This document shows positions 2,366 through 20,333 of a stretch of 24,644 bases of DNA, piece after piece. The notes beneath the pieces were generated by a model. The model was not told where the DNA came from, searched no databases, and saw only the letters and a program-made list of their open reading frames with translations. How positions within the stretch are numbered: position 1 is the stretch's first letter; every line of letters starts with the position of its first letter. Both the position numbers and the translations under genes were made by a program. The DNA is taken from the UHGV virus genome UHGV-2020843, one strand, 5' to 3'. Source of the stretch: a virus.

Positions 2366-3339
2366 TACGCAGCCGCCTTTTTCTTGAAGAAAACCACCTC
2401 ACGAACCTGATCGCCGTTCATGAGCATGTCGTTAAAATCCCCGTTATCCGGGTAGTAGATGCTGATTTTTTCCAGGTCATTTTTTGCCAGTAAGTTGGCA
2501 TGGGCGCATTCCGTGGCCGCAGCCAATCCAGTGGCGCTGTTTACGTCTCGATCTGCGAAAATAATCAAATTTTTCACACCTGCAGGAACACGGAATTTCT
2601 TCATGAATCCGCTGGTCATGGTGGCCCAGGTGTTAACGTTGTATAGCTGCTTGCAGGAAAGAGCCGTTTCGATACCCTCGGCAATTCCGAGGGTCGTCGC
2701 TACCGGGAACATGCGAATAGCGACGGAACGGGCATGATCCAGATAGCTTTCGTCCTGAAGAGATTTCTGGCGCTTCGCTCCGGCAGAATCCCTTAGTTGG
2801 GCTTTCTGATTGCCGTCCAGTAAGGTTCTGTGCAGATAGCAAAGCTCGCCTTTGTCGTCAGTTGCGAGTGAATACAGACACTGGTAAACCTTACCGCCGT
2901 AGCGTTGTTTATCATTGAACTTCACTGCCTCTTGTGGGAGCTGATAAATTCCCCTGGCCTGCAGATATTCCGCCCCGGTAGTTCCTTTCAGGTTGACCAG
3001 TTTCGAAAATTTGGACAGAACCCGATCACGGGCGCTTACGGCATCTGAAGTGCGCGGAAACGCTTCGCGGGTAAAGTTATTACCAATCAGCTGGTCTATT
3101 TCCCTGCAAATTTCATTGAATGGCTTCCCTTGCGTCAGAGTGACAAGCTTCATTCCGTCACCGCTGCCGCAGGTACAGATCCATGTTCCCCGGCCGTCCC
3201 GGTCATCAATACGCAGCTTTCCCCGCGCACCACATACCGGACATTCGCCTTTAAAGTGATTTCTGGCATTAATGGGAGGTAACCCGAAGTGCTCAAAAAT
3301 CATTGCCCATTGACCTTTTGCCGCTTCTGCCGTCTTCAT
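2365..3339 (-). CDS. DNA primase (zinc-ribbon plus TOPRIM domain, phage/P4-type)
   Basis: N-terminal CPVCGARGK...WICTCGSGDG zinc-binding motif followed by TOPRIM-like IAEGIETALS and FADRD acidic motifs; ATGA overlap with helicase stop. Confidence 0.8.
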   Translation of the reverse strand: MKTAEAAKGQWAMIFEHFGLPPINARNHFKGECPVCGARGKLRIDDRDGRGTWICTCGSGDGMKLVTLTQGKPFNEICREIDQLIGNNFTREAFPRTSDAVSARDRVLSKFSKLVNLKGTTGAEYLQARGIYQLPQEAVKFNDKQRYGGKVYQCLYSLATDDKGELCYLHRTLLDGNQKAQLRDSAGAKRQKSLQDESYLDHARSVAIRMFPVATTLGIAEGIETALSCKQLYNVNTWATMTSGFMKKFRVPAGVKNLIIFADRDVNSATGLAAATECAHANLLAKNDLEKISIYYPDNGDFNDMLMNGDQVREVVFFKKKAAA

Positions 3340-4952
3340 GCTCGTTTTCCTAACTGCTGTTTGATATCGCTAATCGCTTTCTGTGCTTGCTGTACTGAGG
3401 ATGGGGCTGCCGTGCCTGATGCCTCCTGCAGGCGCTTGGCCTTCTCCTGCCCTTTCGCATACGCAATCAATTTGTGCCGGATGAAATTAGAGACAGTCGG
3501 GGTGATCTCCATCGGAAAATCGCTTAACCCGTTAGGCCACTCGTCAAACCGTTCGCGAAAGGTATTTGCGCACCAGCCATCGCTGACGGGCTTTTTCCCC
3601 TGCGATACGCGCTGACGCTGATAGAATTTGATCTGACTCCACCAGGCCTGTTTCTCTGCCTTAGTGGGCTGATGCTGGTTTTTACCCAGCTTTTTGAGTT
3701 TGCGGCCGGTGTCGGTATCGACGTCCTCACCGCCCAGCGGCTTATGCCCACATTTCGGGCATACATAGACGCCAGCTGGCTTCATGTAATGGCATTGAGA
3801 GCATTCGTGTGGCAGTTTTTCGGCCCGTTCCTCAGCTGCGCGGCGCGCGCTTTCCTCCATGCCGTCAGACTTACCGGGAAGATCGTCGTACTCGATTGAA
3901 TCCGGATAACCCAAACGGTGCACGGTACCGCTGTGATCGAAGATGAGGCAGGACTCTTTACCCGGTGCGGTGCGCAGGCCACGCCCGAGCGCCTGCAGCC
4001 AGCGAATTTCGCTTTTTGTTGGCCTGGCGTAGATGATGCAACGAACGTCACTATCGAAGCCGGCCACCAGAACGCCCACACTAACGATGATTTTCGTTGC
4101 ACCGGTTTCAAAGCGGTGAATGATGGTCTGGCGTTCATCCACTGGAGTGTCGGCGGTCATGACCTCAGCGTTAACACCCGCCAGGTTAAACTGAATTGTC
4201 AGGTAATTGGCGTGGGCTACGTTGACGCAGAAAGCGATGGTAGGCAGATCCCGGCCATTCTCCAGCCAGTTCTGTACGATGTCGCCCACCAGCGTAGAGC
4301 CGCACATGATTTCAGCCAGCTGCGTTTCGTTGTAATCGCTGCCGTACTCAAGCGATGCTTTGGTTTTAACACCTTTCAGATCCGGCTTAGTTGGCGCGTA
4401 AAATTCATATTTACTCAGATCGCCACGCTGAATTAACTCGCCGATGGTGGTGGGCTTAATCAGTCGGTCATAGTATTTGCCCAGGAACGGGGAAAACGGA
4501 GTACCCGACAGGCCAATCACCTTTACGCCTTTGCCGCGTAGACGGTCGATATCCTTCAGGATGCGTTTTTTACGCAGGTGTGCTTCGTCGATAATCAGCA
4601 GATCGATATTTTCAGGAAAAACACGACGAATAAGCGTATCGGCGCTGGCAATCTGAATTTTCCGGTCCGGATCGTAGTTCGGGTGATCCGCCCAGATATA
4701 ACCGATTTCATCCCCCGGTAATCCATACTCCACGAACCGATTAGCCGTCTGACCGATCAGGATGGTGTACGGTGCACAGAACAGGACGCGCATACCACGG
4801 CTGACAAACCCGGCAACGATGAAGGCCGCCAAACCCGTTTTACCGCTACCGGTTGGCGAATACACCATGAAGGTGTCGTTTGCCTTCCAGTCACGGCGCA
4901 ACATGTTTAGCGCTCGTTCCTGTGCAAAATTCGGCGTGATCGTCAGCTCCAT
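3336..4952 (-). CDS. Phage SF2 DNA helicase (DEAD/DEAH-box type)
   Basis: Walker A SPTGSGKT, Walker B IIDEAHL, C-terminal Cys4 motif CSQCH...CPKCGH; 538 aa; GGGGG ribosome-binding site upstream. Confidence 0.8.
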   Translation of the reverse strand: MELTITPNFAQERALNMLRRDWKANDTFMVYSPTGSGKTGLAAFIVAGFVSRGMRVLFCAPYTILIGQTANRFVEYGLPGDEIGYIWADHPNYDPDRKIQIASADTLIRRVFPENIDLLIIDEAHLRKKRILKDIDRLRGKGVKVIGLSGTPFSPFLGKYYDRLIKPTTIGELIQRGDLSKYEFYAPTKPDLKGVKTKASLEYGSDYNETQLAEIMCGSTLVGDIVQNWLENGRDLPTIAFCVNVAHANYLTIQFNLAGVNAEVMTADTPVDERQTIIHRFETGATKIIVSVGVLVAGFDSDVRCIIYARPTKSEIRWLQALGRGLRTAPGKESCLIFDHSGTVHRLGYPDSIEYDDLPGKSDGMEESARRAAEERAEKLPHECSQCHYMKPAGVYVCPKCGHKPLGGEDVDTDTGRKLKKLGKNQHQPTKAEKQAWWSQIKFYQRQRVSQGKKPVSDGWCANTFRERFDEWPNGLSDFPMEITPTVSNFIRHKLIAYAKGQEKAKRLQEASGTAAPSSVQQAQKAISDIKQQLGKRA

Positions 4953-5675: not shown

Positions 5676-5906
5676 TCAGATATCCCCGGAAGGTCGTGGG
5701 AATACCGTTGGGATATCAGGCCGTAATTCGTATGGCTTAACCTCCCCGTTTGTAGCCATTGAGATAGCGACTGCATTTTGAGGGGAAATCTTCTGATGGT
5801 TGTTCAGCCACTTCCAAACAGCCCCCTGAGTGACACCGATGGCTCTAGCCAACGCAGATTGGCCCCCTGCCAATCTCACTGCTTTCTGAATAGCGTTTTC
5901 TGACAT
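5676..5906 (-). CDS. cro: Cro/YdaS-like helix-turn-helix regulator
   Basis: 76-aa ORF with HTH-like segment QSALARAIGVTQGAVWKW, divergent from the cI-like repressor across an operator-containing intergenic region. Confidence 0.7.
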   Translation of the reverse strand: MSENAIQKAVRLAGGQSALARAIGVTQGAVWKWLNNHQKISPQNAVAISMATNGEVKPYELRPDIPTVFPRPSGDI

Positions 5907-5922
5907 ATTAGCGCCCTTAAAA

Positions 5923-6010
5923 ATACTTTAGGATTTGGATGATATTACCATAGTATTAATTTAGCAAGAATACTCTAGTGTTGAATGGAAAAAGCTTTTG
6001 TACTAAATTA
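5923..6010. promoter_or_regulatory. Immunity switch: three operator sites (5923-5936, 5945-5958, 5970-5983) with divergent PR-like and PRM-like promoters
   Basis: Three 14-bp sites each 2 mismatches from palindrome AATACTATAGTATT, spaced 22-25 bp. Minus strand -35 TTGCTA (5963-5968) and -10 TATCAT (5940-5945), 17-bp spacer, for cro. Plus strand -35 TTGAAT (5982-5987) and -10 TAAATT (6005-6010), 17-bp spacer, for cI. Confidence 0.5.
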
Positions 6011-6039
6011 ATCCGATCGTATTAACCAGAGGCAAAAAC

Positions 6040-6747
6040 ATGAGTGGAACGACTTTTTCGGACCGGCTAAGAGACAGCATGCAGAAGGCTGGGCTGACCC
6101 AAAGCCAGTTAGCTGAAGCAGTCGGAGTGTCACAGGGGGCAATTCAGAAACTTGTATCTGGTAAGGCAAAGTCGACAACTAAGCTTGTTCAGATAGCTAA
6201 TGTCCTTGGTGTTCGCCCTGAATGGTTAAGCGAAGGCGTTGGTGCGATCCGTAAATCAGATGATTTCCCTCCAGAAGAAAAGTGGAGCAAAGTCGAGACC
6301 TGGGATAGCAACACGCCTTTAGAATCTGATGAAGTGGAAGTCCCATTCCTTAAAGATATTGAGTTTGCATGCGGTAGCGGCAGAGTTATGGAAGAAGATT
6401 ACAACGGTTATAAACTGAGGTTTTCGAAGTCTACCCTGAGAAGAGTTGGAGCAAGCACAGATGGTTCAGGCATTATCTGTTTCCCGGCTGCCGGGAACAG
6501 TATGGAACCACTCATACCAGACGGTACAACAGTGGCTGTTAACATCGAAGACAAAAAAATCGTTGATGGAAAGATTTACGCGATCAATCAGGAAGGGTGG
6601 AAGCGGATCAAACTCCTATACCGGACAGGCCCGGATGAGTTGACTATCCGTAGCTATAACGCAGAAGAGTACCCTGATGAGGTAGTGAAGATGTCCAGCG
6701 TAGAGGTCGTTGGTAGAGTGTTTTGGACTTCTACAGTTTGGAACTAA
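6040..6747 (+). CDS. cI: CI-type phage repressor (N-terminal HTH, C-terminal S24/LexA-like peptidase domain)
   Basis: 235 aa; HTH LTQSQLAEAVGVSQGAIQKL; C-terminal AGNSMEP Ser motif and downstream Lys (KRIK), typical of autocleaving LexA/CI repressors; GAGG ribosome-binding site upstream. Confidence 0.85.
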   Translation: MSGTTFSDRLRDSMQKAGLTQSQLAEAVGVSQGAIQKLVSGKAKSTTKLVQIANVLGVRPEWLSEGVGAIRKSDDFPPEEKWSKVETWDSNTPLESDEVEVPFLKDIEFACGSGRVMEEDYNGYKLRFSKSTLRRVGASTDGSGIICFPAAGNSMEPLIPDGTTVAVNIEDKKIVDGKIYAINQEGWKRIKLLYRTGPDELTIRSYNAEEYPDEVVKMSSVEVVGRVFWTSTVWN

Positions 6748-8880: not shown

Positions 8881-9275
8881 GCAAATCAGCAAAAGAGCTT
8901 TATACCGTACCTGAATGGATGCGCCCATACCTTACGTTATTCCAAAACACTGGAGGTAATGACGTTGAGGATCTGCTGCACGATGAAGACACCAATATGT
9001 TCGCAAATAGCATTCGGTACATGTTGATCGTGTCCGCTCGTTCACAATTCAGATTGCTGATGGATATGTATAAAAATGGGCAGATTATCGAGCTTGAAAC
9101 GATGAAAACAGACCCTGTTGGTGAAGATTATCAGTCAGCGATCGACATCTTGCGCGACAGAGCTGCTCGCGAACTCGATGGTGGTTTTCGCTCACATCAC
9201 AACGCCCTGATTTATGCAGCTAATGAACTGGAAAATGCCCAGGCCTTCGGGCGGGAGGTCAGCCATGAGTCTTGA
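8877..9275 (+). CDS. Hypothetical protein (132 aa)
   Basis: ORF with ATGA overlap to the upstream stop; no recognisable motif. Confidence 0.5.
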   Translation: MSKSAKELYTVPEWMRPYLTLFQNTGGNDVEDLLHDEDTNMFANSIRYMLIVSARSQFRLLMDMYKNGQIIELETMKTDPVGEDYQSAIDILRDRAARELDGGFRSHHNALIYAANELENAQAFGREVSHES

Positions 9276-9474
9276 TTGCGTACCCCTTTCTACGTACTGC
9301 AGGGACGCGGGGGAAACGGTAGAAGCCGTTAACAAACGGATACAAAGGGGGTTATGGAAGGAGGGAGTACATGTATTAAAAGTCGATGGCGTTAAAGAAC
9401 GCTGGATTGACTTAACGGAGGTTTCAAAGTGGGCAAGAAAGAACAAGGATCATTATCTCTCCCAAGAGGAGTAA
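9265..9474 (+). CDS. xis: Excisionase-like protein
   Basis: About 69 aa, immediately upstream of and overlapping the integrase; GGGAGG ribosome-binding site; small basic DNA-binding-like protein in the canonical xis position. Confidence 0.55.
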   Translation: MSLDCVPLSTYCRDAGETVEAVNKRIQRGLWKEGVHVLKVDGVKERWIDLTEVSKWARKNKDHYLSQEE

Positions 9475-10601
9475 CCATCCGCCAGCATAAAACTGGCGAC
9501 ACTCTGGTTATCACTTTCACATACAAAGGGGTTCTGTGCCGGGAGCCCCTCTCCAAAATGGAAGCAAACGCGCGCGGTGTGAAGTACGCCGAGCGCCTGC
9601 TCGGGGAGATACAGAACCAGATCGTCAGTGGCACCTTTGAATATGCGAAATATTTCCCCAACTCCAAAAAGCTGGAGCTATTCGGGGTGGTGAAGAAAAC
9701 CAAAAACATAAAGTCCTACCTGGACGAGTACCTCAAAATCTGCCAGAACCGCAACCTGTCCCCGTCGACTATAAATGGTTATGAAAAATGCCTGTCGGCA
9801 CTGTCAGCTCTGCATAAACTCCACGTGTCAGAACTGACGCCAGCGGTCCTTAAAAACTGGATAGCCAGCCGGAAAACAAAGCTGAAAACGACCAGGAATA
9901 ACCTTTCGTTTCTGCGCAGCGCAATCGATGAAGCTGTTACGGATGGCCTGCTGACCATTAACCCGGTAACCCTCGTCAGCGCCAGCCGGTACCACGTGAT
10001 CGACAGCAGCCCGAGCGCCGACGATTACGAGGTTGACCCGTTCACGCCAGCGGAGACCCTCGCCATTTACCAGAACTGCAGGTACCCGGAATGGGAAAAC
10101 CTGTTCCGCTTTGCTTTCAATACCGGTCTGCGGAGCTCCGAACTGTGCGCGCTGCGCTGGCCTGATCTCGACACCATCGCGAACACAGCCCACGTTCAGG
10201 CGGCCAGTGTCGTAGGGGTACTTAAAGGCACCAAGACAAAAGCCGGTACCCGCAAGGTGGAGCTGAACAGTGAGGCGCTGGCGGCCCTGCAGGCGCAGAA
10301 GCAATACACCTTTATGAAAAGTGAGTTCATATTCAGCGATCCGAAAACGGGAGAACCCTGGGCGAACGCCGACGCTATCCGTAAAAAAGCATGGGTGCCG
10401 ACCCTGAAAAAAGCTGGCGTGCGCTACCGTAACCCGTACCAGACGCGGCACACATTCGCCACCAAGCATATTAGCCAGGGCGTTAACCTCTTCTGGCTTG
10501 CCGGACAGATGGGCCACAAAGGGCCGGAAATGATATTCCGCAACTACGGTAAATACCTGGCTGAATATGACGGTAAAACCGCGATTTCAACCGCGCTGTA
10601 G
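9429..10601 (+). CDS. int: Tyrosine site-specific integrase (lambda Int-like)
   Basis: 390 aa; C-terminal catalytic region with RHTFATKH, GHKG and YGKY (R-H-R-Y type residues); located next to the attachment-site core. Confidence 0.85.
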   Translation: MGKKEQGSLSLPRGVTIRQHKTGDTLVITFTYKGVLCREPLSKMEANARGVKYAERLLGEIQNQIVSGTFEYAKYFPNSKKLELFGVVKKTKNIKSYLDEYLKICQNRNLSPSTINGYEKCLSALSALHKLHVSELTPAVLKNWIASRKTKLKTTRNNLSFLRSAIDEAVTDGLLTINPVTLVSASRYHVIDSSPSADDYEVDPFTPAETLAIYQNCRYPEWENLFRFAFNTGLRSSELCALRWPDLDTIANTAHVQAASVVGVLKGTKTKAGTRKVELNSEALAALQAQKQYTFMKSEFIFSDPKTGEPWANADAIRKKAWVPTLKKAGVRYRNPYQTRHTFATKHISQGVNLFWLAGQMGHKGPEMIFRNYGKYLAEYDGKTAISTAL

Positions 10602-10724
10602 CGGGGTAAATATTTCAAAATGTTGGACAGAATCAGGACGTTAGACAGACCTCAATATGCACGTAAAATGCACCTGAGGTATATCACAGTGAAAGAATTG
10701 TTTATTTTCAATGAGTTAAATGCC

Positions 10725-10760
10725 TTTCGGACGCGAGTTCAACTCCCGCCAGCTCCACCA
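10725..10760 (+). other. Attachment-site core: 36-nt copy of the 3' end of tmRNA (ssrA) ending in CCA, not a complete gene
   Basis: TTTCGGACGCGAGTTCAACTCCCGCCAGCTCCACCA matches the recalled 3' end of E. coli ssrA with one mismatch (A for G in the T-arm stem); sequence upstream does not resemble the ssrA body. Confidence 0.7.
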
Positions 10761-10807
10761 AAATTCTCCATCGGTGATTACCAGAGTCATCCGATGAAGT
10801 CCTAAGA

Positions 10808-10839
10808 GCCCGCACGGCGCAAGCCCTGCGGGCTTTTTT
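10808..10839 (+). terminator. Intrinsic terminator downstream of the ssrA 3'-end copy
   Basis: GCCCGCA...TGCGGGC stem followed by T6. Confidence 0.6.
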
Positions 10840-10963
10840 GTGCCCTCAATTTGTCCCGCGAAGTCCGAAGAGAACTAATTAAATCCGAACCTTTTAGGCC
10901 CATTGATAGGCCCAACGAAAAGCTCTATTGTTTACGTTGGGCCTAAACGCAGGGAGACTCCCC

Positions 10964-12205
10964 ATGGCAAGAAAAACCAAGCCGTTAACTGATACGGAAA
11001 TCAAAGCCGCCAAACCTAAAGATGCCGATTACCAGCTTTATGACGGTGACGGGCTTACTCTGTTAATCAAGTCCAGTGGCAGTAAGCTTTGGCAATTCCG
11101 TTACTATCGGCCTTTGACCAAGCAGCGAACCAAACAGAGCTTCGGTGCCTATCCTGCCGTCTCGCTTTCTGATGCACGTAAACTCAGAGCCGAATCTAAA
11201 GTTTTATTGGCGAAAGACATTGATCCTCAGGAACATCAGAAAGAACAGGTGAGGAATTCTCAAGAGGCCAAAACCAATACCTTCTTGTTAGTTGCCGAGC
11301 GTTGGTGGAATGTGAAGAAAACCAGCGTAACAGAGGACTATGCCGACGATATCTGGCGCTCGCTTGAGAGAGATATTTTCCCGGCAATCGGTGATATCAG
11401 TATCACTGAGATTAAGGCTCATACTCTGGTTAAAGCAGTTCAGCCGGTTCAGGCCAGAGGTGCATTAGAGACTGTTCGCCGCCTTTGTCAGCGTATTAAC
11501 GAAGTCATGATTTATGCGCAGAACACAGGCCTGATTGATGCTGTTCCTAGTGTAAATATCGGAAAAGCTTTCGAGAAACCGCAAAAGAAAAACATGCCAA
11601 GCATCCGGCCGGATCAACTTCCGCAGCTAATGCACACCATGCGTACGGCAAGTATCAGCATGTCCACAAGATGCCTGTTCATGTGGCAACTTCTAACCAT
11701 CACCCGCCCTGCCGAAGCTGCTGAGGCTCGATGGGATGAGATCGATTTCAATGCTAGCGAATGGAAAATTCCTGCAGCTCGAATGAAGATGAACCGGGAC
11801 CATACGGTTCCACTATCTGATGGGGCTCTTGCTATTCTGGAAATGATGAAGCCTCTCAGTGGTGGCCGAGAATTTATCTTTCCTAGCCGTATCAAGCCCA
11901 ACCAACCAATGAATAGCCAAACAGTGAATGCAGCACTCAAGCGTGCTGGCTTAGGAGGTGTACTTGTTTCACACGGCTTGCGTTCTATCGCCAGTACGGC
12001 ACTCAATGAGGAAGGATTTCCACCTGATGTCATTGAAGCAGCGCTTGCTCATGTAGACAAAAATGAGGTGCGTCGCGCTTATAACCGCAGTGATTATCTT
12101 GAGCAACGTCGTCCGATGATGCAATGGTGGGCTGATCTCGTAAAAGCAGCAGATAGTGGTAGCATCGTTTTAACTCATTTGAGCAAAATTCGTCTTGTCG
12201 GATAA
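10964..12205 (+). CDS. intA: P4-type tyrosine integrase IntA
   Basis: 413 aa starting MARKTKPLTDTEIKAAKPKDADYQLYDGDGLTL; AGGGAG ribosome-binding site; C-terminal HGLRS...AHVDKNEVRRAYNRSDY catalytic region. Confidence 0.9.
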   Translation: MARKTKPLTDTEIKAAKPKDADYQLYDGDGLTLLIKSSGSKLWQFRYYRPLTKQRTKQSFGAYPAVSLSDARKLRAESKVLLAKDIDPQEHQKEQVRNSQEAKTNTFLLVAERWWNVKKTSVTEDYADDIWRSLERDIFPAIGDISITEIKAHTLVKAVQPVQARGALETVRRLCQRINEVMIYAQNTGLIDAVPSVNIGKAFEKPQKKNMPSIRPDQLPQLMHTMRTASISMSTRCLFMWQLLTITRPAEAAEARWDEIDFNASEWKIPAARMKMNRDHTVPLSDGALAILEMMKPLSGGREFIFPSRIKPNQPMNSQTVNAALKRAGLGGVLVSHGLRSIASTALNEEGFPPDVIEAALAHVDKNEVRRAYNRSDYLEQRRPMMQWWADLVKAADSGSIVLTHLSKIRLVG

Positions 12206-12448
12206 AATATTTATCAGCCCAGCTCTCTGGGCTGATATTTCTAAAAGATCGCACTAAATAGCTACGCGGAATAGTGCTCTACTTTCGTTTAGCCCTTTCA
12301 GAGGTAAGACATTAGGGCAATTTCACTGTATGACTGCGCAGTCATCGAGTCTGTGGGGTGTTGCTCCTTTTGCAACGTATCACTTGTCAATAAATAGAAA
12401 GTGTAGATGTATTAGGCGCAGCTATTTAGTCTATATGGCAAGTAGTAA

Positions 12449-13405
12449 TTATTTACTTCTTTTTTTTCTACGAACAGCGCTATCGAAAGCTTGTTTTACA
12501 TCTTCATTTTTTAAAGACCATTGATTTAAAATAGTATCAACCAAAGCATCTTGACTCATTGTTGCTACACGATATTTTTTATTTTGATTATTTATCTCAA
12601 ACTCTGACATTTGAATAAAATCCCATAGCGGTTCGATAAGTTCATTAACTGCTACAACCTTATTTTTCCACCCATCATTCGGAACAGAGTCATTAATTAG
12701 CTCAACCAACTTCAGTTGAATGATATGGTACACTTCCGCTTTGCTTTTGCCACCCTTCTTTCCTGCACTCCGCCTGACTTCTGATAATTTTTTTTGATTA
12801 CAAACAGAGATGTTAAACCAAGTCATACCTATGCACTTATCAAATAACTCCGCAGCCCGATGAAATGCTTTAAAGGCAACGTTTTCATTTTCAGACATGA
12901 TAGATTTTCCCCAGAAAAAAGAGATTGAGGCGAACATAAGGTGTGCCTTGAAAATGTCATTAATGGAAAATGGCTCGATAACAAGAGGTAAAAACGTTTC
13001 CTTGGTAAGGTTTGAACTTAGATTTTTCCAGCATTCTTGAGCTGGATCATATAATTCAGTGTATTCTTCCTTTATCTCCAGTTGCCCATTCACTGTATGG
13101 TGCCTTGTTTCCCATGGTACATCGCAGGAATATAACCTCACACGAGTACCTATTTTCTCAGAGCTCCAGAATTGCTCTCGCATTCTGCCTAGCTCAATCC
13201 GTATTTCCGGATGATCTTCCTCTAGAACATCAGTATCCACCGCCCATTCGCATTCGGACATGTGATAGGCGAGATCACGTCGTTTTCTACAAATTTGTTC
13301 ATAAAAATCATTCAGAGAAATCATAAAACCACCATAAATCAATGTATTAGAGGTTGTAAAAATTGTATTTTTGGTACATGGGTTTTTTGCCTTAAAGATA
13401 CCCAT
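12449..13405 (-). CDS. yfjH: Uncharacterised island protein YfjH (318 aa from ATG at 13405; alternative start at 13324)
   Basis: AT-rich ORF between intA and alpA, on the opposite strand; position and length match recalled CP4-57 yfjH. Confidence 0.65.
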   Translation of the reverse strand: MGIFKAKNPCTKNTIFTTSNTLIYGGFMISLNDFYEQICRKRRDLAYHMSECEWAVDTDVLEEDHPEIRIELGRMREQFWSSEKIGTRVRLYSCDVPWETRHHTVNGQLEIKEEYTELYDPAQECWKNLSSNLTKETFLPLVIEPFSINDIFKAHLMFASISFFWGKSIMSENENVAFKAFHRAAELFDKCIGMTWFNISVCNQKKLSEVRRSAGKKGGKSKAEVYHIIQLKLVELINDSVPNDGWKNKVVAVNELIEPLWDFIQMSEFEINNQNKKYRVATMSQDALVDTILNQWSLKNEDVKQAFDSAVRRKKRSK

Positions 13406-13448
13406 TAATCTCTCTGCAACCAAAGTGAACCAATGAGAGGCAACAAGA

Positions 13449-13661
13449 ATGAACAATCGATCGGCCGTTAGAATACTACGGTTACCAGCGGTTATCCAAA
13501 AAACAGGTATGGCACGGGCCACCATCTATGACTGGTTGAACCCCAAATCACCACGATACGATGCCACCTTTCCCAAAAAGCGAATGCTCGGCGTGAAATC
13601 TGTCGGATGGATTGAGGCCGAGATTGATGAGTGGTTATCACAACGCTGTAAACTTATTTGA
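13449..13661 (+). CDS. alpA: AlpA-family transcriptional regulator (excision/int regulator)
   Basis: 70 aa, MNNRSAVRILRLPAVIQKTGMARATIYDWL HTH typical of AlpA/phage regulatory proteins. Confidence 0.85.
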   Translation: MNNRSAVRILRLPAVIQKTGMARATIYDWLNPKSPRYDATFPKKRMLGVKSVGWIEAEIDEWLSQRCKLI

Positions 13662-13789
13662 GGGTGTTACATGAATTCATACTCAATTGCTGTCATCGGA
13701 GTGTAAACATCCTGCTATTTCCGCCATTAATAGCGGAATAGCCATATTTGCTAAACAATTTCTTAATTTAATTAAATAAGAGGCATTGC

Positions 13790-15199
13790 ATGTTCAATGG
13801 TCGTCCTTTCCCTGTAGATGCATTTCCTAAAATTATCAGGAATGCAATTTATGAAGTGGAACAGCATACGCAGGCCCCTCAAGGTTTGATTGCTGCTTCT
13901 GCTCTTGGGGTAATTTCTCTTGCCTGTCAGAACCGGATTGATGTTTGCCGATTGAATAATCTACGTGGCCCGGTATCACTTTTCTTAATGACTCTGGCTG
14001 AATCAGGTGAACGTAAGAGTACGGTTGATAAACTGCTGATGAAGCCATTATATCAACTGGAAGAGGATTTATTTGAAAAATACACCCACGATCTTACCGC
14101 ATGGAGAAATGATGAAGCAATTTTTAATATTGAAAAAAAAGCACTGATGTCAAAACTTAAATCAGATATTCGACGTAACAAAGATCACTTGGCAACAAAT
14201 GAAAGACTTAAAGAACTACTTACGACAAACCCGAAAGCTCCAGTGAGATTCAAATTTTTATTTAACGATGCCACACCTGCAGCTATTAAAGCTCATCTCT
14301 GTGGGCACTGGCGATCAGTCGGCATCATGTCTGATGAAGCTGGGATCATTTTTAATGGTTACACACTTAACGAGCTGCCGTTTATCAATAAGATGTGGGA
14401 TGGTTCAATATTTACGGTGGAAAGGAAAAACGAGCCCGAGAAATTAATTAGAGATGCAAGAATAACACTGTCGCTGATGGTCCAGCCTAATGTTTTTAAG
14501 GGTTATATCGACAGGAAAGGAGATATGGCAAAGGGGATTGGATTTTTTGCACGGTGCCTCATGTGCCAGCCTGCTTCAACACAAGGTAACAGAAAAATTT
14601 CCAACCCAATTTTTTCAAATGAACATTTGCCGGTATTTCACCAACGTCTTATGGAAATTGTTAATGAGAGCATCATTAAAATTAATGAAAATAATCGCAT
14701 CTGCCTCCGATTCTCTGCAGAAGCAGAAAGACATTGGATCGAATTCTACAACCAGGTCGAGTCAGAAATGAGAATGATTGGCCTTCTTTATGATTTTAAG
14801 GATTATGCTTCTAAAATGGCGGAGAACATGGCGAGGCTTGCTGCCTTACTTCATTACTTCAGCGGTGATGGAGGCGATATATCTGTTACCGCAGTAAAAG
14901 CAGCAGTGGAGATAGTGGCTTGGTATATTGAAGAATACATCCGCTTGTTCTCTAAAAAAGAAGAGTTTTCTTTAGATGTTTCAGAAGCAGATGAGCTTTA
15001 TTGTTGGATAAAAGATTACTGCACGCAAAAATTTTCTTCCTGCATCAAGAAAAATATTATCTTACAATTTGGGCCAAATAAATTTAGAAATCGTGACAAG
15101 GCAAATGAATTAATTAGAATCTTAATTTCACAAAACAAAATATTTATATCTTCATGGGGTAAAACAAAAATAATAAACATAACTCATTGTGTTTTTTGA
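13790..15199 (+). CDS. yfjI: YfjI, DUF3987-type protein (possible replication or primase-associated)
   Basis: 469-aa ORF in AT-rich region following alpA, matching CP4-57 order. Confidence 0.75.
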   Translation: MFNGRPFPVDAFPKIIRNAIYEVEQHTQAPQGLIAASALGVISLACQNRIDVCRLNNLRGPVSLFLMTLAESGERKSTVDKLLMKPLYQLEEDLFEKYTHDLTAWRNDEAIFNIEKKALMSKLKSDIRRNKDHLATNERLKELLTTNPKAPVRFKFLFNDATPAAIKAHLCGHWRSVGIMSDEAGIIFNGYTLNELPFINKMWDGSIFTVERKNEPEKLIRDARITLSLMVQPNVFKGYIDRKGDMAKGIGFFARCLMCQPASTQGNRKISNPIFSNEHLPVFHQRLMEIVNESIIKINENNRICLRFSAEAERHWIEFYNQVESEMRMIGLLYDFKDYASKMAENMARLAALLHYFSGDGGDISVTAVKAAVEIVAWYIEEYIRLFSKKEEFSLDVSEADELYCWIKDYCTQKFSSCIKKNIILQFGPNKFRNRDKANELIRILISQNKIFISSWGKTKIINITHCVF

Positions 15200-15351
15200 T
15201 TTTAATGACAATCTAAAAGGACTTAATTTAAGAGTAAAAACAAACTCTAAACCCAGTTCGGATAAAAGCTTGTCATCTTGATAGGTAATATATAGGTACA
15301 TAGACACATCAGAACGATCACTTACTCCAATATCATTGGCCAGGATACTAT

Positions 15352-15978
15352 ATGACATACGATAGTGAATTCGGATCACATGTATCCCTATATCGGGATA
15401 GAATCAAACAGGTTATTGATGACTCCCTAAACGAACATCTTAACTCAATGATTCTACGTGTTGATCTGCATGACCCAATTGATACAGAAAATATGGATAA
15501 CCCATTCTTTCAACCCAGGGTTGACTCTGGTGCTATATCTCGCTTTACCAGTGCGTTAAAAGCAAAGCTTAAACACGATAAGCATATTAAAACTCAACGG
15601 AAAGACTGGCCTGATACTCGACATTCAACCTTACGTTACGCATGGGTCCGAGAATATACCAAAAATAGAAAGCGGCATTACCATTTGATACTGTGTTTCA
15701 ATCAGGATGCTTATTATCATTTAGGTGATTACGACTTAAACCGTAACACGTTACGTACAATGATAACGACAGCTTGGTACAGTGCACTTGGCATCCCTAT
15801 AGATAGCTCGGGGAAGTTAGTTAATTACCCGCCAAATGGCAAATACCTTCTCAATCGTAAAAGGGACAACTTTGAGCAGACTTATAGCGATTTGATGAAT
15901 AGGGTGGATTACATGACCAAAGTAAGGACTAAAATAGTCGGTGACGGAGACCGTAATTTCGGCTGCAGTCGCGGGTAA
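15352..15978 (+). CDS. yfjJ: YfjJ, YagK/YfjJ-family protein (inovirus Gp2-like replication-initiation fold)
   Basis: 208-aa ORF with AGGA ribosome-binding site, followed by a hairpin terminator. Confidence 0.7.
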   Translation: MTYDSEFGSHVSLYRDRIKQVIDDSLNEHLNSMILRVDLHDPIDTENMDNPFFQPRVDSGAISRFTSALKAKLKHDKHIKTQRKDWPDTRHSTLRYAWVREYTKNRKRHYHLILCFNQDAYYHLGDYDLNRNTLRTMITTAWYSALGIPIDSSGKLVNYPPNGKYLLNRKRDNFEQTYSDLMNRVDYMTKVRTKIVGDGDRNFGCSRG

Positions 15979-15996
15979 TTTATTTTTTACAACAAT

Positions 15997-16035
15997 GGCC
16001 TTTCTTATGGCTGGAAAGGCCTGATTTGTTTGTAT
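15997..16035 (+). terminator. Intrinsic terminator between convergent yfjJ and yfjK
   Basis: GGCCTTTC-9 nt loop-GAAAGGCC hairpin followed by T-rich TGATTTGTTTGTATT. Confidence 0.6.
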
Positions 16036-16155
16036 TAAGATATCGGTAATCTTTTGATGGTTGGAAGCCCGTCCTGGTAGACGACCTAGCCTACCGAAGA
16101 TGTGAGTTATTCAAAAATGTCGCTTTCCCGCGTTCCGTAGACAAACGTACCTAAA

Positions 16156-18345
16156 TCAATGTCGTCTAATACCGAGCGCGCGCCTGATAAACATCTGATC
16201 AACGTACCCAATCGATCTACTCCAAATGTCCTGAGTATCCCGAAGATACTGGCTCAACTCATCCACATCAGCCTCGTCGGAAAATTCCAGCAAGTCTACC
16301 AGTCGGTGTAACGTCTGAATGGGAATGCCAATCTCTTCTAAGGCATTGACACCTGGTGGTAGATGGAAACTTTCGAACGCCAATTTGACATGTGTGTAAT
16401 CGACTTTGCTGCGTATACCACGCTTTACAGCGTGGTGTTTAACTACATCCTCCATCAAGCTGAGCACCTTAGGTAGGGTATAGCCGAAGGTATTGGTTAT
16501 GAGCTTCAAATCATTGTTGAGGGCAATGGAAAGAGTACGTTTCTCCCCTTCAGAAATCCACTGTCGTGCATAATCGATCTGATTTTTCAGATATTCCGAA
16601 TAACTTTCAGCACTTAAATAGCCGGCAAGTTTTGCGATCATGACATCCGTAGGCTTAACAGGGACCCCATTGCGACTGAACGTATGGGGAACCAGTCTGG
16701 CAATGATCTTTGCAAAGGTCTTGAGGAAGTTTGTCGCGGGAGTCCAGTGAAACACTAACGAGGAAAATTCGTTATCGTCCATCATCTCGAACATGCTTTG
16801 CAGCATTTCGAACTGCTCGACACGGAAGTACGAATGCTTCTTCACAAGGTCGATGGAAACACGGTCGTTTATGAAAACCTCATCAAAGCGATCCTGTGAA
16901 AACTCGGACAAGTGGTCTGGTTGAACGCTGGCTAACAGGTTGATTGGGGTATCAATGCCCTGAATACCGAGCGGAATATCCACCTCTTGATTGAGATTGT
17001 CTTCCGGGATTTCCTCCAGGCAAAAGATTTTGCCGACGAAGTGAACGCCCATGCGCCCGGCGCGACCTTTGATGTTCCCATGGGTGAATTTGTCAATGCT
17101 GCGAGTTCCATCGCGGTTGTCGTAGATCACAACGTTCTTAGCGATAGTGTTGACTCCTTCAATGATCGTGGAGGTGCAGAGCAAAAAGCGCAGTTTTCCA
17201 GCATTGAATTGGTCGGCAGTGTATTGCTGCAGTGCCCTCGGTAGCGCGCCAAAATGCAAGCCAATACCGTTTCTAAGGGCGACTGTGTAATCCCAGTCGG
17301 CATCGAACTCTTCGCTGACCCAGTCGACATGGGGATTCTCAGTCGGAGTGCCATGCCCAAGCCTGATCAGCTCGCGCGCCACCAGGCCCGCAACAGTTGG
17401 TGACTTGCAATAAATGATCGTTGCGTCGACACATGCGTGCGCGATTTCCCCCAGCGCTTTGAGCTTGGCTTTGTCGTCATTCGCTTTGATGCCGAACGTC
17501 TTAACATCTAGCGCGACTGTATTGAAGTCGGTAGAAACGAAAGTATGCGGATATCCAAGTTTTTCGAGACCGCGAATGCTGTTAACGAACGGTCCCGTCA
17601 GGTAAAACTGCCTGGAGACCTTAAGCAGTTTGCTTAACGCAATGTTGAGCTCGATGACTCGTTCGTCTTGATGATCAATGTCCCCGCTTTTCAGTTGTCG
17701 GAACGCCAACTTGTAAAACTCGTCAATGACGAAGAGGTCAATGTCGACGATGTCGTCACGCTCGTTCACTCGCTCCTGAGTTAACACATAAACAGCCTGA
17801 TCGGAATGGCACACTTGGGAACTGTGGTGGATGATCTGATATCGGTCACCGAATCGCTCTTGCAGTCGGCGACGGGTTTCGTCGGCAAGAGCCACGGTTG
17901 GAACAACCAGAACAAGCCGTTTCAAAGTTCCCATGCCGAGCAATGAATCGACGATTGCACTTTTGCCCATGCTTGTAGGTGCACTCAGCACCACGTTTTG
18001 ACCAGACTTGAGCAGATCGAATATGTGGAACTGCATTGAGTGGAAAACATAACCATCCGAGAATGGCGTCCGGTATAGCTCAAGCACCCTCAGGTCATCC
18101 GGTGTCAGGCTGGTGAACTCCTTTTTGAGATACGGGAACAAACCTGATTTTCTCACCATATTTTTCAAAATTGTGGTGTGCTCGGAAAACCGCTCGCGCG
18201 AATCGAGAGCTCGCACGATCAAGTCCCGTCCCAAGTCATACGAAACAGGGTTAGACAACAGCTTGTTAACCGCAAACAGATAATTGAACGATGAGAAGTC
18301 CTCACCCTGCAGGCTATGTTTCGCCTGTTCATAGATCTCTGTCAT
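16156..18345 (-). CDS. yfjK: SF2 helicase YfjK (AbpB), Hachiman-type defence helicase HamB homologue
   Basis: 729 aa with Walker A LSAPTSMGKS and DEAD/DExH-like VIDEFYKL; ATGA overlap with the upstream yfjL stop. Confidence 0.85.
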   Translation of the reverse strand: MTEIYEQAKHSLQGEDFSSFNYLFAVNKLLSNPVSYDLGRDLIVRALDSRERFSEHTTILKNMVRKSGLFPYLKKEFTSLTPDDLRVLELYRTPFSDGYVFHSMQFHIFDLLKSGQNVVLSAPTSMGKSAIVDSLLGMGTLKRLVLVVPTVALADETRRRLQERFGDRYQIIHHSSQVCHSDQAVYVLTQERVNERDDIVDIDLFVIDEFYKLAFRQLKSGDIDHQDERVIELNIALSKLLKVSRQFYLTGPFVNSIRGLEKLGYPHTFVSTDFNTVALDVKTFGIKANDDKAKLKALGEIAHACVDATIIYCKSPTVAGLVARELIRLGHGTPTENPHVDWVSEEFDADWDYTVALRNGIGLHFGALPRALQQYTADQFNAGKLRFLLCTSTIIEGVNTIAKNVVIYDNRDGTRSIDKFTHGNIKGRAGRMGVHFVGKIFCLEEIPEDNLNQEVDIPLGIQGIDTPINLLASVQPDHLSEFSQDRFDEVFINDRVSIDLVKKHSYFRVEQFEMLQSMFEMMDDNEFSSLVFHWTPATNFLKTFAKIIARLVPHTFSRNGVPVKPTDVMIAKLAGYLSAESYSEYLKNQIDYARQWISEGEKRTLSIALNNDLKLITNTFGYTLPKVLSLMEDVVKHHAVKRGIRSKVDYTHVKLAFESFHLPPGVNALEEIGIPIQTLHRLVDLLEFSDEADVDELSQYLRDTQDIWSRSIGYVDQMFIRRALGIRRH

Positions 18346-19958
18346 ACGACCTCTCTCACCTTCTCATCAACTAATTGGGTTAACCGCTCAAGACTCGGGG
18401 CTGGATAAATGAATACGTGGATGCAAAGATTCGCAAACGGCGAATCCTCGATGAGGTCAGCCGCGAATTTTTCGAACAGCACCGCTGTTTCTTTCTCCAG
18501 GTCATCCTCGAACCCCGGCGTTTCAGGCTCGGTTAGTAGATTAGAGTCGTAGCCCACGAACAGAACAAACGTGAAACGATCGAGGTGAGCATCGAAAGGT
18601 TGGCTGCCATCAAGAATTTCGTCAATGTCGTGGCGAAGCAGGTAGTTATCGTCTTTAATGTCGAGGATTTTTTTGCGCGCGGTATCGATGCAATCCGAAA
18701 TGTCCTCGTACAACTGATCCCGTATCTCCGGCAATCTGACGGCAATGTTAATATCAGTCACCAACTCGCTGAAGCCAATCCAAAGCTGATCACCTTCTGG
18801 ATCGCGGCGAACGATATGCACGTTTTCAAGAATTTTTTCGGCCCCTGCTTTTTCCACGTATAGCATGCAAGGAATAGGCTGGCTTTCGTGGTGCTGCCGG
18901 ATCGTTGCGTGCAACAGCACTCGACCCAAAAATTCGCTGACGTCATGGAGCGATTTGAAGACGGAATTCTTTAGTCGTTCTCGCTTTTCAATGAATGTCA
19001 GTTTATGAATATCAGACATTTCTTTTGGTCGGAGAAAAACCTCATCCAACCATTGACAGACGTTATCCGCGATGTGCTTGTAGCGGTATTTCTTAAGTGA
19101 GTACTGCTGATGTAGAACCTGGCCTTTACGCTTAGCGCAGACCGAAGCCATAGGCGCTCTAAATGGCGTAAGGATGTGGGGTAAGTCCCGTTTGACGTAG
19201 ATTTTGCGGCCTGACCGAGATTGGTCATCTTCGACACGCTGCTTGAACCACTCAAGTAGGTCTGGTCGTAAGTAGGACTTGTCATCAGCACTGTGAATGC
19301 GTCGAGAATGCTCGCCCTTGCGCGTCACAGTATCAAGGATGCGGCACCAAATGTCTTCGGCGACGGTTTCGGAACTGAGAATGACCCCATGTAGATCTTG
19401 GGAGGCCAGCCGTATGTTCTTGATCCCTAGAAGTTCCAGTTCGCGCAGGGATGAAAACACTTCCCATGTAGCCGCATCGATCCAATCTGAAACGCTTATA
19501 CCTGAGTCTGTTAAAAAATTGTCTGTGCGTTTGTTGAGGTCATCGATGAGTTCCTGTCGACCTGGCTTATCTAGTCGGGCGTTTGGGCTGATCGTCAAGT
19601 ACTCAAGGGTTTTGTTGACCTTTTCCTCTGTGACGATGGAGTACCTACGTCCAAGGGACAGGTCAGACTCACACTGCATTGATTTGTGCAAAATTGAACT
19701 GCAGGGGATCGTCTTTTTATCAGCACCTTTTGAATTCTGAACGATGTCCGAAATGTTCCAACGTGTTTTGCCGGTGCTTTTTACCTGAACGAAGTCGATG
19801 TATCCATCAGATACAATGTCGATATCGTCTGTGACCTCGCAGCGCACACTGCGGATAGTCTTGTCACGAAGCATTCGGGTGACATGGTAAGCGGCTACGC
19901 AGTCCTGAAATAAGAAACCGTGCTTGGCGGCTACTCCGCCTGAATCGTTCGACTCCAT
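18342..19958 (-). CDS. yfjL: YfjL (AbpA), Hachiman-type defence effector HamA homologue (DUF1837-type)
   Basis: 538-aa ORF immediately upstream of and translationally coupled to the helicase, in the conserved CP4-57 position. Confidence 0.8.
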   Translation of the reverse strand: MESNDSGGVAAKHGFLFQDCVAAYHVTRMLRDKTIRSVRCEVTDDIDIVSDGYIDFVQVKSTGKTRWNISDIVQNSKGADKKTIPCSSILHKSMQCESDLSLGRRYSIVTEEKVNKTLEYLTISPNARLDKPGRQELIDDLNKRTDNFLTDSGISVSDWIDAATWEVFSSLRELELLGIKNIRLASQDLHGVILSSETVAEDIWCRILDTVTRKGEHSRRIHSADDKSYLRPDLLEWFKQRVEDDQSRSGRKIYVKRDLPHILTPFRAPMASVCAKRKGQVLHQQYSLKKYRYKHIADNVCQWLDEVFLRPKEMSDIHKLTFIEKRERLKNSVFKSLHDVSEFLGRVLLHATIRQHHESQPIPCMLYVEKAGAEKILENVHIVRRDPEGDQLWIGFSELVTDINIAVRLPEIRDQLYEDISDCIDTARKKILDIKDDNYLLRHDIDEILDGSQPFDAHLDRFTFVLFVGYDSNLLTEPETPGFEDDLEKETAVLFEKFAADLIEDSPFANLCIHVFIYPAPSLERLTQLVDEKVREVV

Positions 19959-20217
19959 TTAGACATCCGTGACAATTTTGCGAAAATTAAGGAGATGTTA
20001 TGACACAGTCCAATCGGATCACTGCATCATCACCAGTGATCTAAATACTTCACAGCCATTCTCGGTCGCAGGTATCAAGCTTTTCAGGATTCCACAAATA
20101 TTGTAACCCTGACGTCTAATTTGGTTATATAACATACTGCCCCAACTAACGTAAGGTAGGCACAGCCTTAATCAAGGTTTTGGTTTTCAAATAGTTCAGA
20201 GCTGAGACCGCCAACCG

Positions 20218-20284: not shown

Positions 20285-20333
20285 CGCCAGCGATTGTAAT
20301 CACACTTGATATTATAAAACACAGTTGCACGCA

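What the first reader, a model, noticed from the sequence alone, without database searches (positions are those of the whole stretch)
10602..10963. Two integrative elements abutting at a shared ssrA attachment core
The lambdoid integrase ends at 10601 and the CP4-57-like intA starts at 10964; between them lies a 36-nt copy of the ssrA 3' end with one T-arm stem mismatch and no ssrA body upstream. This implies the lambdoid prophage inserted at the ssrA site already occupied by the CP4-57-like island (or the reverse), with the intact ssrA presumably beyond the left end of the window. Tandem occupation invites int/xis cross-talk between the elements.
Basis: partly seen in the sequence, partly recalled or inferred. 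Interest (0 to 1): 0.5.

Follow-up and report, generated by a model that had tools for sequence, protein, structure and literature searches.

The report
Phage and island sharing ssrA site
The 36-base piece of the tmRNA gene (ssrA) between the two integrase genes is the scar left when a temperate phage integrated into ssrA just upstream of the old CP4-57 island, a well-known and ordinary kind of tandem arrangement.

Summary
Window 10725-10760 is a 35/36 copy of the last 36 nt of E. coli ssrA (G->A at 10736, T-stem), with no ssrA body upstream. It lies between a phage integrase (ends 10601) and CP4-57 intA (starts 10964).

From 10725 rightwards the window is K-12 CP4-57, with 14 differing positions in 13.9 kb. 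To the left is the early region of a temperate phage (Q, primase, helicase, cro, cI, xis, int).

The fragment is both the phage's attR and the attL of CP4-57. The A at 10736 comes from the phage: it is present in the attP form of this phage and in attR of a near-identical prophage in an E. coli that lacks CP4-57. That lysogen and a K-12 lysogen of the related phage Nef both have an intact ssrA at the far (left) prophage end. The window's own left end lies outside the window and was not seen.

The phage most probably arrived second. The two integrases belong to unrelated subfamilies with different excisionases and arm repeats, so int/xis cross-talk has no support.

Tandem arrays at ssrA are established knowledge. 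One inferred consequence is mildly interesting: CP4-57 excision should no longer damage the working ssrA.

The parts
705..1508 (-). Phage antiterminator Q
   Evidence: Pfam Antiterm, E = 8e-51. Annotated as antitermination protein in the related prophages.
2365..4952 (-). Phage replication module: toprim/zinc-ribbon primase (2365-3339) and DEAD/ResIII helicase (3336-4952)
   Evidence: Pfam Toprim_3, Zn_Ribbon_Prim, ResIII and Helicase_C.
5676..6747 (.). Immunity region: Cro-like gene (5676-5906, - strand) divergent from a CI-like HTH + S24 peptidase repressor (6040-6747, + strand)
   Evidence: Pfam P22_Cro/YdaS, and HTH_3 + Peptidase_S24.
9265..9474 (+). Phage excisionase (69 aa), overlapping the start of int
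   Evidence: phrog_2917 excisionase, E = 2e-40. The homologue in NZ_CP054665 is annotated as excisionase.
9429..10601 (+). Phage tyrosine integrase of the lambda-Int type (arm-binding N-terminal domain)
   Evidence: Pfam Arm-DNA-bind_2 + Phage_integrase; phrog_1. The exact same protein occurs on 24 or more public contigs, always followed by an ssrA 3' fragment where the flank is held.
10602..10724 (+). Phage P arm of attR. It carries conserved direct repeats: GTTrGACAGA twice (10615-10649) and (A)ATGCAC twice, 11 bp apart (10654-10673). These are candidate arm-type Int/Xis sites.
   Evidence: Repeats found. The same blocks are conserved in P arms of related phages (LMessi, Nef, PhiR12_5, phi467). 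ATGCAC pairs and GGACAG motifs recur in the P' arm. Their function as binding sites is inferred.
10725..10760 (+). Displaced copy of the ssrA 3' end (positions 328-363), 35/36 identical. It serves as attR core of the phage and attL core of CP4-57. The phage-derived A is at 10736.
   Evidence: The same A is present in attP (L012) and in attR of the CP4-57-free lysogen L003.
10737..10760 (+). 24-nt block identical in attP, attB, attL and attR. The phage crossover must lie in it, most likely in the T-loop TTCAACT (10738-10744). The CP4-57 IntA crossover is inferred to lie within CCGCCAGC (10746-10753), 5' of T357 (10754).
   Evidence: Comparison of the four att forms. For IntA: the K-12 attR sequence TTCAGACTCCGCCAGC-CCACCA, plus the published finding that CP4-57 excision deletes only T357 (PMC10107115). 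The exact overlap positions are inferred.
10761..10963 (+). Left arm of CP4-57. It holds the ssrA terminator hairpin (10804-10837, followed by a T run), GAAGTCCnAAGAG repeats (10796-10808 and 10860-10872), and TAGGCCCA direct/inverted repeats (10893-10947) in front of intA.
   Evidence: Identical to K-12. Terminator and repeats. The CP4-57-free strain L003 has a different sequence after the core. Roles of the repeats are inferred.
10964..12205 (+). intA, the P4-type integrase of CP4-57
   Evidence: Pfam Arm-DNA-bind_3 + Phage_int_M + Phage_integrase. Identical to the K-12 intA region.
13449..13661 (+). alpA, the regulator and excision factor of CP4-57
   Evidence: Pfam Phage_AlpA, E = 7e-24. 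K-12 annotation.
12206..24644 (.). Remainder of CP4-57 present in the window: yfjH, alpA, yfjI, yfjJ, abpB, abpA, yfjM, rnlA, rnlB, yfjP, yfjQ and the start of yfjR
   Evidence: From 10725 to the window end there are 14 differing positions against K-12 NEB 5-alpha: the 10736 A, 5 SNPs and one 8-bp indel.

Best explanation
The region 10602-10963 is a hybrid attachment site. It formed when a temperate phage with a lambda-type Int integrated site-specifically into the 3' end of ssrA, in a chromosome where the CP4-57 island already sat directly after ssrA.

**How the junction arose.**
- The phage attP carries its own copy of the last ~36 nt of ssrA. That copy is imperfect 5' of the T-loop and exact from the T-loop to CCA.
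- Recombination inside the exact 24-nt block rebuilt a complete ssrA from the phage copy at the far-left prophage end (attL, outside the window).
- The original chromosomal 3' end was pushed to the right prophage end. There it is now preceded by the phage P arm and int, and still followed by the CP4-57 left arm and intA.
- The same 36 nt is therefore attR of the phage and attL of CP4-57.

**What is shown and what is inferred.**
- Shown: the sequence anatomy, the phage origin of the A at 10736, and the use of ssrA with an intact gene at attL in close relatives.
- Inferred: the order of arrival (phage second); the phage crossover in the T-loop; the IntA crossover in CCGCCAGC; independent excision of each element by its own Int and excision factor; and that CP4-57 excision here would change only the dead fragment, not the working ssrA.
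For: 1. The 36-mer matches ssrA 35/36, is unique in the window and is absent from shuffles.
2. Homology to K-12 starts exactly at 10725 and runs to the window end. The 10736 A is the only difference in the junction.
3. The same phage (98.7-99.96% identical) is seen in three forms, all with A at the 10736 position:
   - as attP, with P arm, core, then CTTTT... (L012);
   - as attR next to native flanks (L010);
   - as attR next to other P4-type integrase islands (L011).
4. In E. coli 25-07338 (L003) a 96.6%-similar prophage of about 39 kb has smpB and an intact 363-nt ssrA at its left end, followed by the P' arm. This P' arm is near-identical to the free phage LMessi attP P' arm (identical over the first ~65 nt). 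At its right end is the A-bearing fragment followed by the native flank and ypjA, with no CP4-57.
5. A K-12 'invader' strain that acquired phage Nef at ssrA in the mouse gut shows the same layout: ssrA, Nef, fragment, CP4-57 intA (PMC6731689).
6. At least five further complete E. coli genomes have the colinear int, fragment, intA junction. Pseudocitrobacter cyperus has a phage attR followed by the CP4-57-type left end and an intA-sized ORF that I did not compare with IntA.
7. The phage genes are intact and typical: Q, primase, helicase, cro, cI, xis, int.
Against: - The left prophage end and the intact ssrA of this particular genome lie outside the window, an estimated ~28 kb further left by comparison with L003. 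I found no public record containing the whole window. Completeness of the prophage and presence of ssrA are therefore extrapolated from relatives.
- Sequence alone cannot strictly tell which element arrived first.
- The crossover positions are deduced from identity blocks and one published excision product, not mapped.
Confidence: 0.9

Rival explanations
1. Reverse order of arrival. The phage was in ssrA first, and the CP4-57-like island later integrated into the displaced fragment at the phage attR, using it as a secondary attB.
For: The fragment keeps all 36 nt around the inferred IntA crossover with one mismatch. A short attB could therefore be intact. The final sequence would be the same under either order.
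Against: - More than 350 complete genomes carry this same CP4-57 (>=99% identity) joined directly to an intact ssrA with no phage.
- CP4-57 is a defective K-12 cryptic element, known to excise but not to transfer (my own knowledge; PMC10107115).
- Phage acquisition at ssrA in a CP4-57-bearing K-12 was observed directly (PMC6731689).
- The phage part is 99.96% identical to copies in a non-E. coli host, which points to recent arrival.
- As a general rule for tDNA arrays, newcomers use the intact gene and end up nearest to it (my own knowledge, Williams 2003).
Confidence: 0.05
2. The phage part is only a remnant, or the locus is rearranged. There is no complete prophage and no intact ssrA at its far end, so the fragment is a fossil of past events rather than a working attR.
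For: Only 10.7 kb of the phage is visible, and no structural or lysis genes are in the window.
Against: - All visible phage genes are intact and 99.96% identical to other copies.
- The P arm is identical to the attP form.
- Close relatives are full-length prophages of about 39 kb bounded by ssrA.
Confidence: 0.04
3. Assembly chimera or chance similarity: the junction is an artefact that joins a phage contig to K-12 DNA.
For: No public record covers 80% or more of the window.
Against: - The breakpoint falls exactly inside the att identity block, as site-specific recombination predicts.
- The phage-specific A lies on the phage side of the breakpoint.
- The same kind of junction exists in several independent complete genomes.
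- A chance match is excluded.
Confidence: 0.01

Closest known systems
K-12 lysogen of phage Nef at ssrA (E. coli IGC_EcoliInv_1.1, NZ_CP054665; Frazao et al. 2019, PMC6731689)
   Same: - Same chromosome layout: smpB, intact ssrA, P' arm, prophage, xis, int, P arm, ssrA 3' fragment, CP4-57 intA.
- Same P-arm repeat blocks and same 23-24-nt exact core.
   Different: - It is a different phage, 90.6% identical over about half of the window's phage part.
- It has two extra ORFs between int and the fragment.
- Its fragment carries different variants (GGATACGGG instead of GGACGCGAG).
[quoted passage not shown]
   Same: - Each element has its own integrase and its own displaced 3' tDNA fragment.
- The fragments have the same orientation as the gene.
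- ssrA is the most enriched target, and Islander lists 125 arrays of two or more elements.
   Different: Nothing in kind; this is one more instance. The Williams 2002 and 2003 papers could not be opened here. What I take from them rests on my own knowledge and on the citation in PMC4383910.
CP4-57 cryptic prophage of E. coli K-12 and its excision switch (Kirby et al. 1994; Wang et al. 2009; Onodera et al. 2022, PMC10107115)
   Same: The right-hand element is this island: 14 differing positions in 13.9 kb. It has intA, alpA, abpAB and rnlAB.
   Different: In K-12 the CP4-57 attL is the end of the working ssrA, so excision deletes T357 and inactivates tmRNA. Here attL is a detached fragment behind a phage, so by inference that coupling is broken.
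ssrA-integrating temperate phages LMessi (PP925823), PhiR12 series, phi467 (LN997803) and phiES15
   Same: Related int (about 85-88% DNA identity). attP has the P-arm repeats, an ssrA 3' copy and the P' arm.
   Different: Different early genes and immunity regions. Only partial DNA similarity to the window phage.

Membership tests
Tandem array of integrative elements at a tDNA (Islander criteria) | A displaced fragment identical or nearly identical to the 3' end of the target tDNA marks the distal end of an element | tested here: met
   10725-10760 matches ssrA positions 328-363 at 35/36. It is unique in the window, with 0 matches in 100 shuffles.
Tandem array of integrative elements at a tDNA (Islander criteria) | [quoted passage not shown] | tested here: met
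   Phage int at 9429-10601 and intA at 10964-12205. Both have Phage_integrase catalytic domains but different arm-binding domains.
Tandem array of integrative elements at a tDNA (Islander criteria) | [quoted passage not shown] | not testable with these tools
   The intact ssrA (left) and the CP4-57 attR (right) lie outside the window, and the source genome was not found. Relatives meet the criterion:
- intact ssrA at attL in L003 and L015;
- degenerate CP4-57 attR in K-12.
attR of a tDNA-targeting phage (attP carries the 3' part of the gene) | The free or circular phage form joins the same P arm and the same gene fragment to a P' arm. That P' arm follows the intact gene in lysogens. | tested here: met
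   - The L012 contig of the same phage reads P arm, fragment with A, then CTTTT.
- The free phage LMessi attP and the attL of L003 and L015 share the P' arm CTTTTGATAGGACTGCAACCGGACAGC....
CP4-57 cryptic prophage (E. coli K-12) | Colinear near-identity to the K-12 island starting at the ssrA 3' end, with intA, alpA and downstream genes | tested here: met
   99.9% identity over 10725-24644. Differences from K-12 are 5 SNPs, one 8-bp indel and the 10736 A.
Lambdoid temperate phage (early-region architecture) | Divergent cI/cro, replication genes, Q antiterminator, and xis-int at the prophage end with the int 3' end next to att | tested here: met
   Pfam and PHROG assignments and gene order. Head, tail and lysis modules are not in the window. 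In relatives they include baseplate genes, so the virion may not be lambda-like.
Heterobivalent lambda-Int-type integrase system | An N-terminal arm-binding domain, plus repeated arm-type sites in both P and P' arms | tested here: inconclusive
   The Arm-DNA-bind_2 domain is present. Conserved repeats (ATGCAC pairs, GGACAG-type) occur in both the P and P' arms. Binding was not tested.
Int/Xis cross-talk between co-resident elements | Related integrases or excision factors, or shared arm sites | tested here: not met
   - Int against IntA gives BLASTP E = 0.48.
- The arm domains differ: Arm-DNA-bind_2 against Arm-DNA-bind_3.
- The excision factors differ: phrog_2917 excisionase against Phage_AlpA.
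- The repeat sets on the two sides of the core differ.

The most novel reading that the evidence does not exclude
By taking over the ssrA end, the phage disconnects the known CP4-57 'excision switch' from tmRNA.

In K-12, CP4-57 excision deletes U357 and inactivates tmRNA. In this lysogen the same excision would change only the detached fragment at the phage attR, and the working ssrA would stay wild type.

The U357 deletion would then be stored in the phage attR. If the phage crossover is in the T-loop, 5' of position 357, the deletion would pass into ssrA only when the phage later excised. This would be a two-step, phage-gated version of the switch.
Probability: 0.5. Interest if true: 0.4.

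Novelty: already known. Interest (0 to 1): 0.2.

Why it matters
This is mostly bookkeeping. It fixes the right boundary of a prophage and the left boundary of CP4-57 to the base, and it shows the phage is a recent arrival that also occurs in other enterobacterial genera.

The one point with biological content is the position of the CP4-57 attL. It is no longer part of the functional tmRNA gene. The published link between CP4-57 excision, tmRNA inactivation and ArfA activation should therefore be lost or delayed in such lysogens. That prediction is easy to test, and it matters for anyone using CP4-57 excision phenotypes in strains that carry an ssrA phage.

Tried and rejected
- **Finding the source genome, to see the left end.**
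  - Whole-window and left-half megablast against 5,426 complete E. coli genomes gave no record covering 80% or more.
  - An exact look-up of the integrase found 24 or more contigs. None carried this phage next to K-12-type intA beyond 10867.
- **Scan of one genome per species** with a P-arm + core pattern. It gave only two hits, Pseudocitrobacter cyperus and Enterobacter soli. These were useful as context, not as the source.
- **A hidden tmRNA gene in the window.** Rejected: ARAGORN found none, and Rfam gave only a sub-threshold hit for the 3' end.
- **The left half as an ABC-transporter operon,** suggested by ORF sizes. Rejected: the ORFs are phage helicase, primase and Q.
- **Narrowing the phage crossover** with natural variants. 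phi467's junction ends ...CCACTT. That only places the crossover 5' of the last two or three bases.
- **Opening Williams 2003 ('Traffic at the tmRNA gene').** The paper is not held.
- **Cross-talk between the two recombination systems.** Rejected as unsupported.

Full report
**1. The observation**

The region between 10602 and 10963 is the spacer between two integrase genes on the + strand.
- The left ORF (9429-10601, 390 aa) ends with TAG at 10599-10601.
- The right gene starts with ATG at 10964, the same start as K-12 intA.

The last 36 nt of K-12 ssrA (TTTCGGACGCGGGTTCAACTCCCGCCAGCTCCACCA) match the window once, at 10725-10760 on the + strand, with one mismatch. None of 100 dinucleotide-preserving shuffles gave a match.

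The mismatch is G->A at 10736, ssrA position 339. This is the fourth base of the 5' strand of the T-stem (GCGGG, loop TTCAACT, CCCGC), so it would give an A.C mispair. This is read directly from the sequence.

Left of 10725 the alignment to ssrA collapses. ARAGORN finds no tRNA or tmRNA gene in the whole window. Rfam finds nothing at gathering score. With relaxed thresholds it gives only a 21-bit tmRNA hit (gathering score 47) that ends at 10760.

**2. What lies on each side**

*Right side.* From 10725 to the window end the sequence is the CP4-57 cryptic prophage of E. coli K-12, at 99.9% identity to many K-12 records. A base-by-base comparison with K-12 NEB 5-alpha gives 14 differing positions in 13.9 kb:
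- the A at 10736;
- five clustered SNPs in yfjJ (15576-15649);
- one 8-bp indel (20217-20224).

The genes present are intA, yfjH, alpA, yfjI, yfjJ, abpB, abpA, yfjM, rnlA, rnlB, yfjP, yfjQ and the start of yfjR. IntA is a P4-type integrase (Arm-DNA-bind_3, Phage_int_M, Phage_integrase) and AlpA matches Phage_AlpA.

*Left side.* Left of 10725 is the early region of a temperate phage with lambda-like organisation:
- Q antiterminator (705-1508, - strand);
- a PHROG of unknown function (1505-2365, -);
- toprim primase (2365-3339, -);
- DEAD/ResIII helicase (3336-4952, -);
- a Cro-like gene (5676-5906, -), divergent from a CI-like HTH + S24 repressor (6040-6747, +);
- a run of small ORFs;
- an excisionase (9265-9474; phrog_2917, E = 2e-40);
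- the integrase (Arm-DNA-bind_2 + Phage_integrase).

**3. What the 36-mer is**

The same phage occurs elsewhere. The exact 390-aa integrase is on at least 24 public contigs. Their DNA is 98.6-99.96% identical to the window's phage part.

Wherever the flank is held, int is followed by the same P arm and the same ssrA fragment carrying the A. What comes after the fragment varies:
- the phage's own P' arm, CTTTT... (L012, the attP form);
- native chromosomal flanks (L010);
- another P4-type integrase island (L011);
- the AAAATTCTCC... sequence, as in the window (L008, L009, L013).

The complete free phage LMessi has the same attP design. It reads P arm, ssrA 3' copy, then the P' arm CTTTTGATAGGACTGCAACCGGACAGC....

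E. coli 25-07338 carries a prophage 96.6% identical over 75% of the window's phage part, and it is bounded as expected. On the left are smpB and an intact 363-nt ssrA (with G339) followed by that P' arm. About 39 kb further right are int, the P arm and the 36-nt fragment with the A. This strain has no CP4-57, and the fragment is followed by ATCATGATTGGACGG... and ypjA. That same ATCATGATTGG flank follows the degenerate CP4-57 attR in K-12.

Three conclusions follow:
- 10602-10724 is the phage P arm.
- 10725-10760 is the displaced chromosomal ssrA end, with its 5' portion replaced by the phage copy. Hence the A.
- 10761 onward is CP4-57.

The only block identical in attP, attB, attL and attR is GTTCAACTCCCGCCAGCTCCACCA (10737-10760). 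The phage crossover must lie inside it.

**4. Tandem occupancy in comparable genomes**

- **K-12 plus Nef.** NZ_CP054665 is the K-12 'invader' strain that acquired the 46-kb phage Nef 'inserted at the ssrA gene' in the mouse gut (PMC6731689). Its annotation shows smpB, intact ssrA, DinI ... prophage ... excisionase, int, two small ORFs, an ssrA fragment, then intA and the rest of CP4-57.
- **Other E. coli.** Five further complete genomes have a colinear int, fragment, intA junction covering at least 80% of a 900-bp probe.
- **Strain DX6.** As assembled, it has two copies of the phage in tandem followed by an intA-type integrase.
- **Pseudocitrobacter cyperus.** It has the phage attR followed by the CP4-57-type left end and a 425-aa ORF of the same length and TTG start as the extended intA reading frame in the window. 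I did not compare that ORF with IntA.

The Islander database lists 125 tandem arrays and notes that the tmRNA gene is the most enriched target (PMC4383910).

**5. How it most likely works**

*Shown:*
- the att anatomy above;
- the phage origin of the A;
- intact ssrA at attL in relatives.

*Inferred:*

(a) **Order of arrival.** The phage came second.
   - More than 350 genomes have this same CP4-57 joined directly to ssrA.
   - The event was observed experimentally with Nef.
   - The phage is 99.96% identical to copies in a non-E. coli host.

(b) **Phage crossover.** Among related phages, the identity block begins right at the 5' edge of the T-loop. The 5' T-stem strand varies between them: GCGAG, ACGGG, CACGGG. 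That pattern fits a 7-bp overlap equal to the T-loop (10738-10744), flanked by the T-stem halves as core-type sites.

(c) **IntA crossover.** The K-12 attR reads TTCAGACTCCGCCAGC-CCACCA. CP4-57 excision is reported to delete only T357 (PMC10107115). The crossover must therefore lie in CCGCCAGC (10746-10753), 5' of T357 (10754). The two enzymes would then cut in adjacent, distinct parts of the shared 24-nt block.

(d) **Arm sites.** The P arm has GTTrGACAGA twice (10615-10649) and ATGCAC twice, 11 bp apart (10654-10673). These are conserved across related phages and echoed in the P' arm. The CP4-57 arm has different repeats: GAAGTCCnAAGAG twice, and TAGGCCCA direct and inverted repeats before intA.

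(e) **Independent excision.** Each element keeps both of its own arms, so each should excise on its own.

**6. Cross-talk**

I found nothing to support it.
- The integrases show no significant pairwise similarity (E = 0.48).
- They have different arm-binding domains.
- The excision factors belong to different families.
- The arm repeats differ.

Cross-talk cannot be excluded without experiment, but the sequence gives no reason to expect it.

**7. A consequence worth testing (inference)**

In K-12 the CP4-57 attL is the end of the working ssrA. Excision removes U357, the G.U identity pair of the acceptor stem, and inactivates tmRNA, which switches ribosome rescue to ArfA (PMC10107115).

Here the attL is a detached fragment. 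CP4-57 loss should therefore leave the functional ssrA, rebuilt from the phage copy, untouched. The deletion would sit in the phage attR. It would reach ssrA only on later phage excision, and only if the phage crossover is 5' of position 357.

**8. Limits**

The left end of this prophage and the intact ssrA of this genome were not seen. The source record was not found. Crossover positions and binding sites are deduced, not mapped. Williams 2002 and 2003 could not be opened and are cited from memory and from reference lists.

**9. Verdict**

The finding is accurate and its main interpretation is right, but this is a textbook tandem array at the tmRNA gene. A near-equivalent K-12 example is already published. 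Interest is low (0.2). It counts as already known.

Noticed in passing
L003 5951-6110 against L003 44910-45070 (the same native flank as K-12 L004 ~4616 onward): The 'native' E. coli sequence 3' of ssrA (ATCATGATTGGACGG..., including its terminator) aligns with the phage P' arm. Local score is 25, against 11.2 +/- 1.9 (maximum 17) for shuffles. The native flank looks like a decayed P' arm left by an older phage of this att family.
   Followed up: partly
window 10761-10867; L009 3644-3750; L008: The first ~107 nt after the ssrA end, including the ssrA terminator hairpin, count as CP4-57 DNA in E. coli. The same stretch also follows this same phage's attR in a host whose neighbouring genes (ada-like, PEP mutase, YceI, ECF sigma) have no E. 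coli match. So the island's left end resembles, or is a scar in, another enterobacterial ssrA locus. It also means a 99.96%-identical phage is present in two genera.
   Followed up: partly
window 10751-10839: There is a sub-threshold Rfam hit to the Salmonella sRNA IsrM (32 bits, gathering score 376), and it covers only the terminator module. The alternative island left ends in L006, L007 and L011 carry a related GAAGTCTACTAAGCCCGCACAGCACAAGC... module. P4-type ssrA islands therefore seem to share a terminator cassette that replaces the ssrA terminator.
   Followed up: no
L019 (E. coli DX6, NZ_CP126345) 4411-43542: Two copies of the same prophage lie head to tail, with identical int protein WP_284564269.1 appearing twice. 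They sit next to an intA-type integrase, which would make a three-element array at ssrA. The record has many frameshifted genes, so an assembly artefact is possible.
   Followed up: no
window 15576-15649 and 20217-20224: Apart from 10736, the only differences from K-12 NEB 5-alpha in 13.9 kb of CP4-57 are five SNPs clustered within 74 bp of yfjJ and an 8-bp indel (GCACTATG) between abpA and yfjM. The SNP cluster looks like a short recombination or gene-conversion patch.
   Followed up: no
L007 (phage phi467 record LN997803) 14771-18296: The deposited Stx phage phi467 record runs past its own attR (core ending ...CCACTT) into a neighbouring 'CP4-57 integrase' gene. The record therefore seems to include part of a tandem neighbour island.
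   Followed up: no
window 8346-8567: A 73-aa ORF in the phage early-left operon has exact-length homologues in related prophages. These are annotated as ParE-family toxin-like (PF24732 on the called genes), and no obvious antitoxin partner was examined.
   Followed up: no
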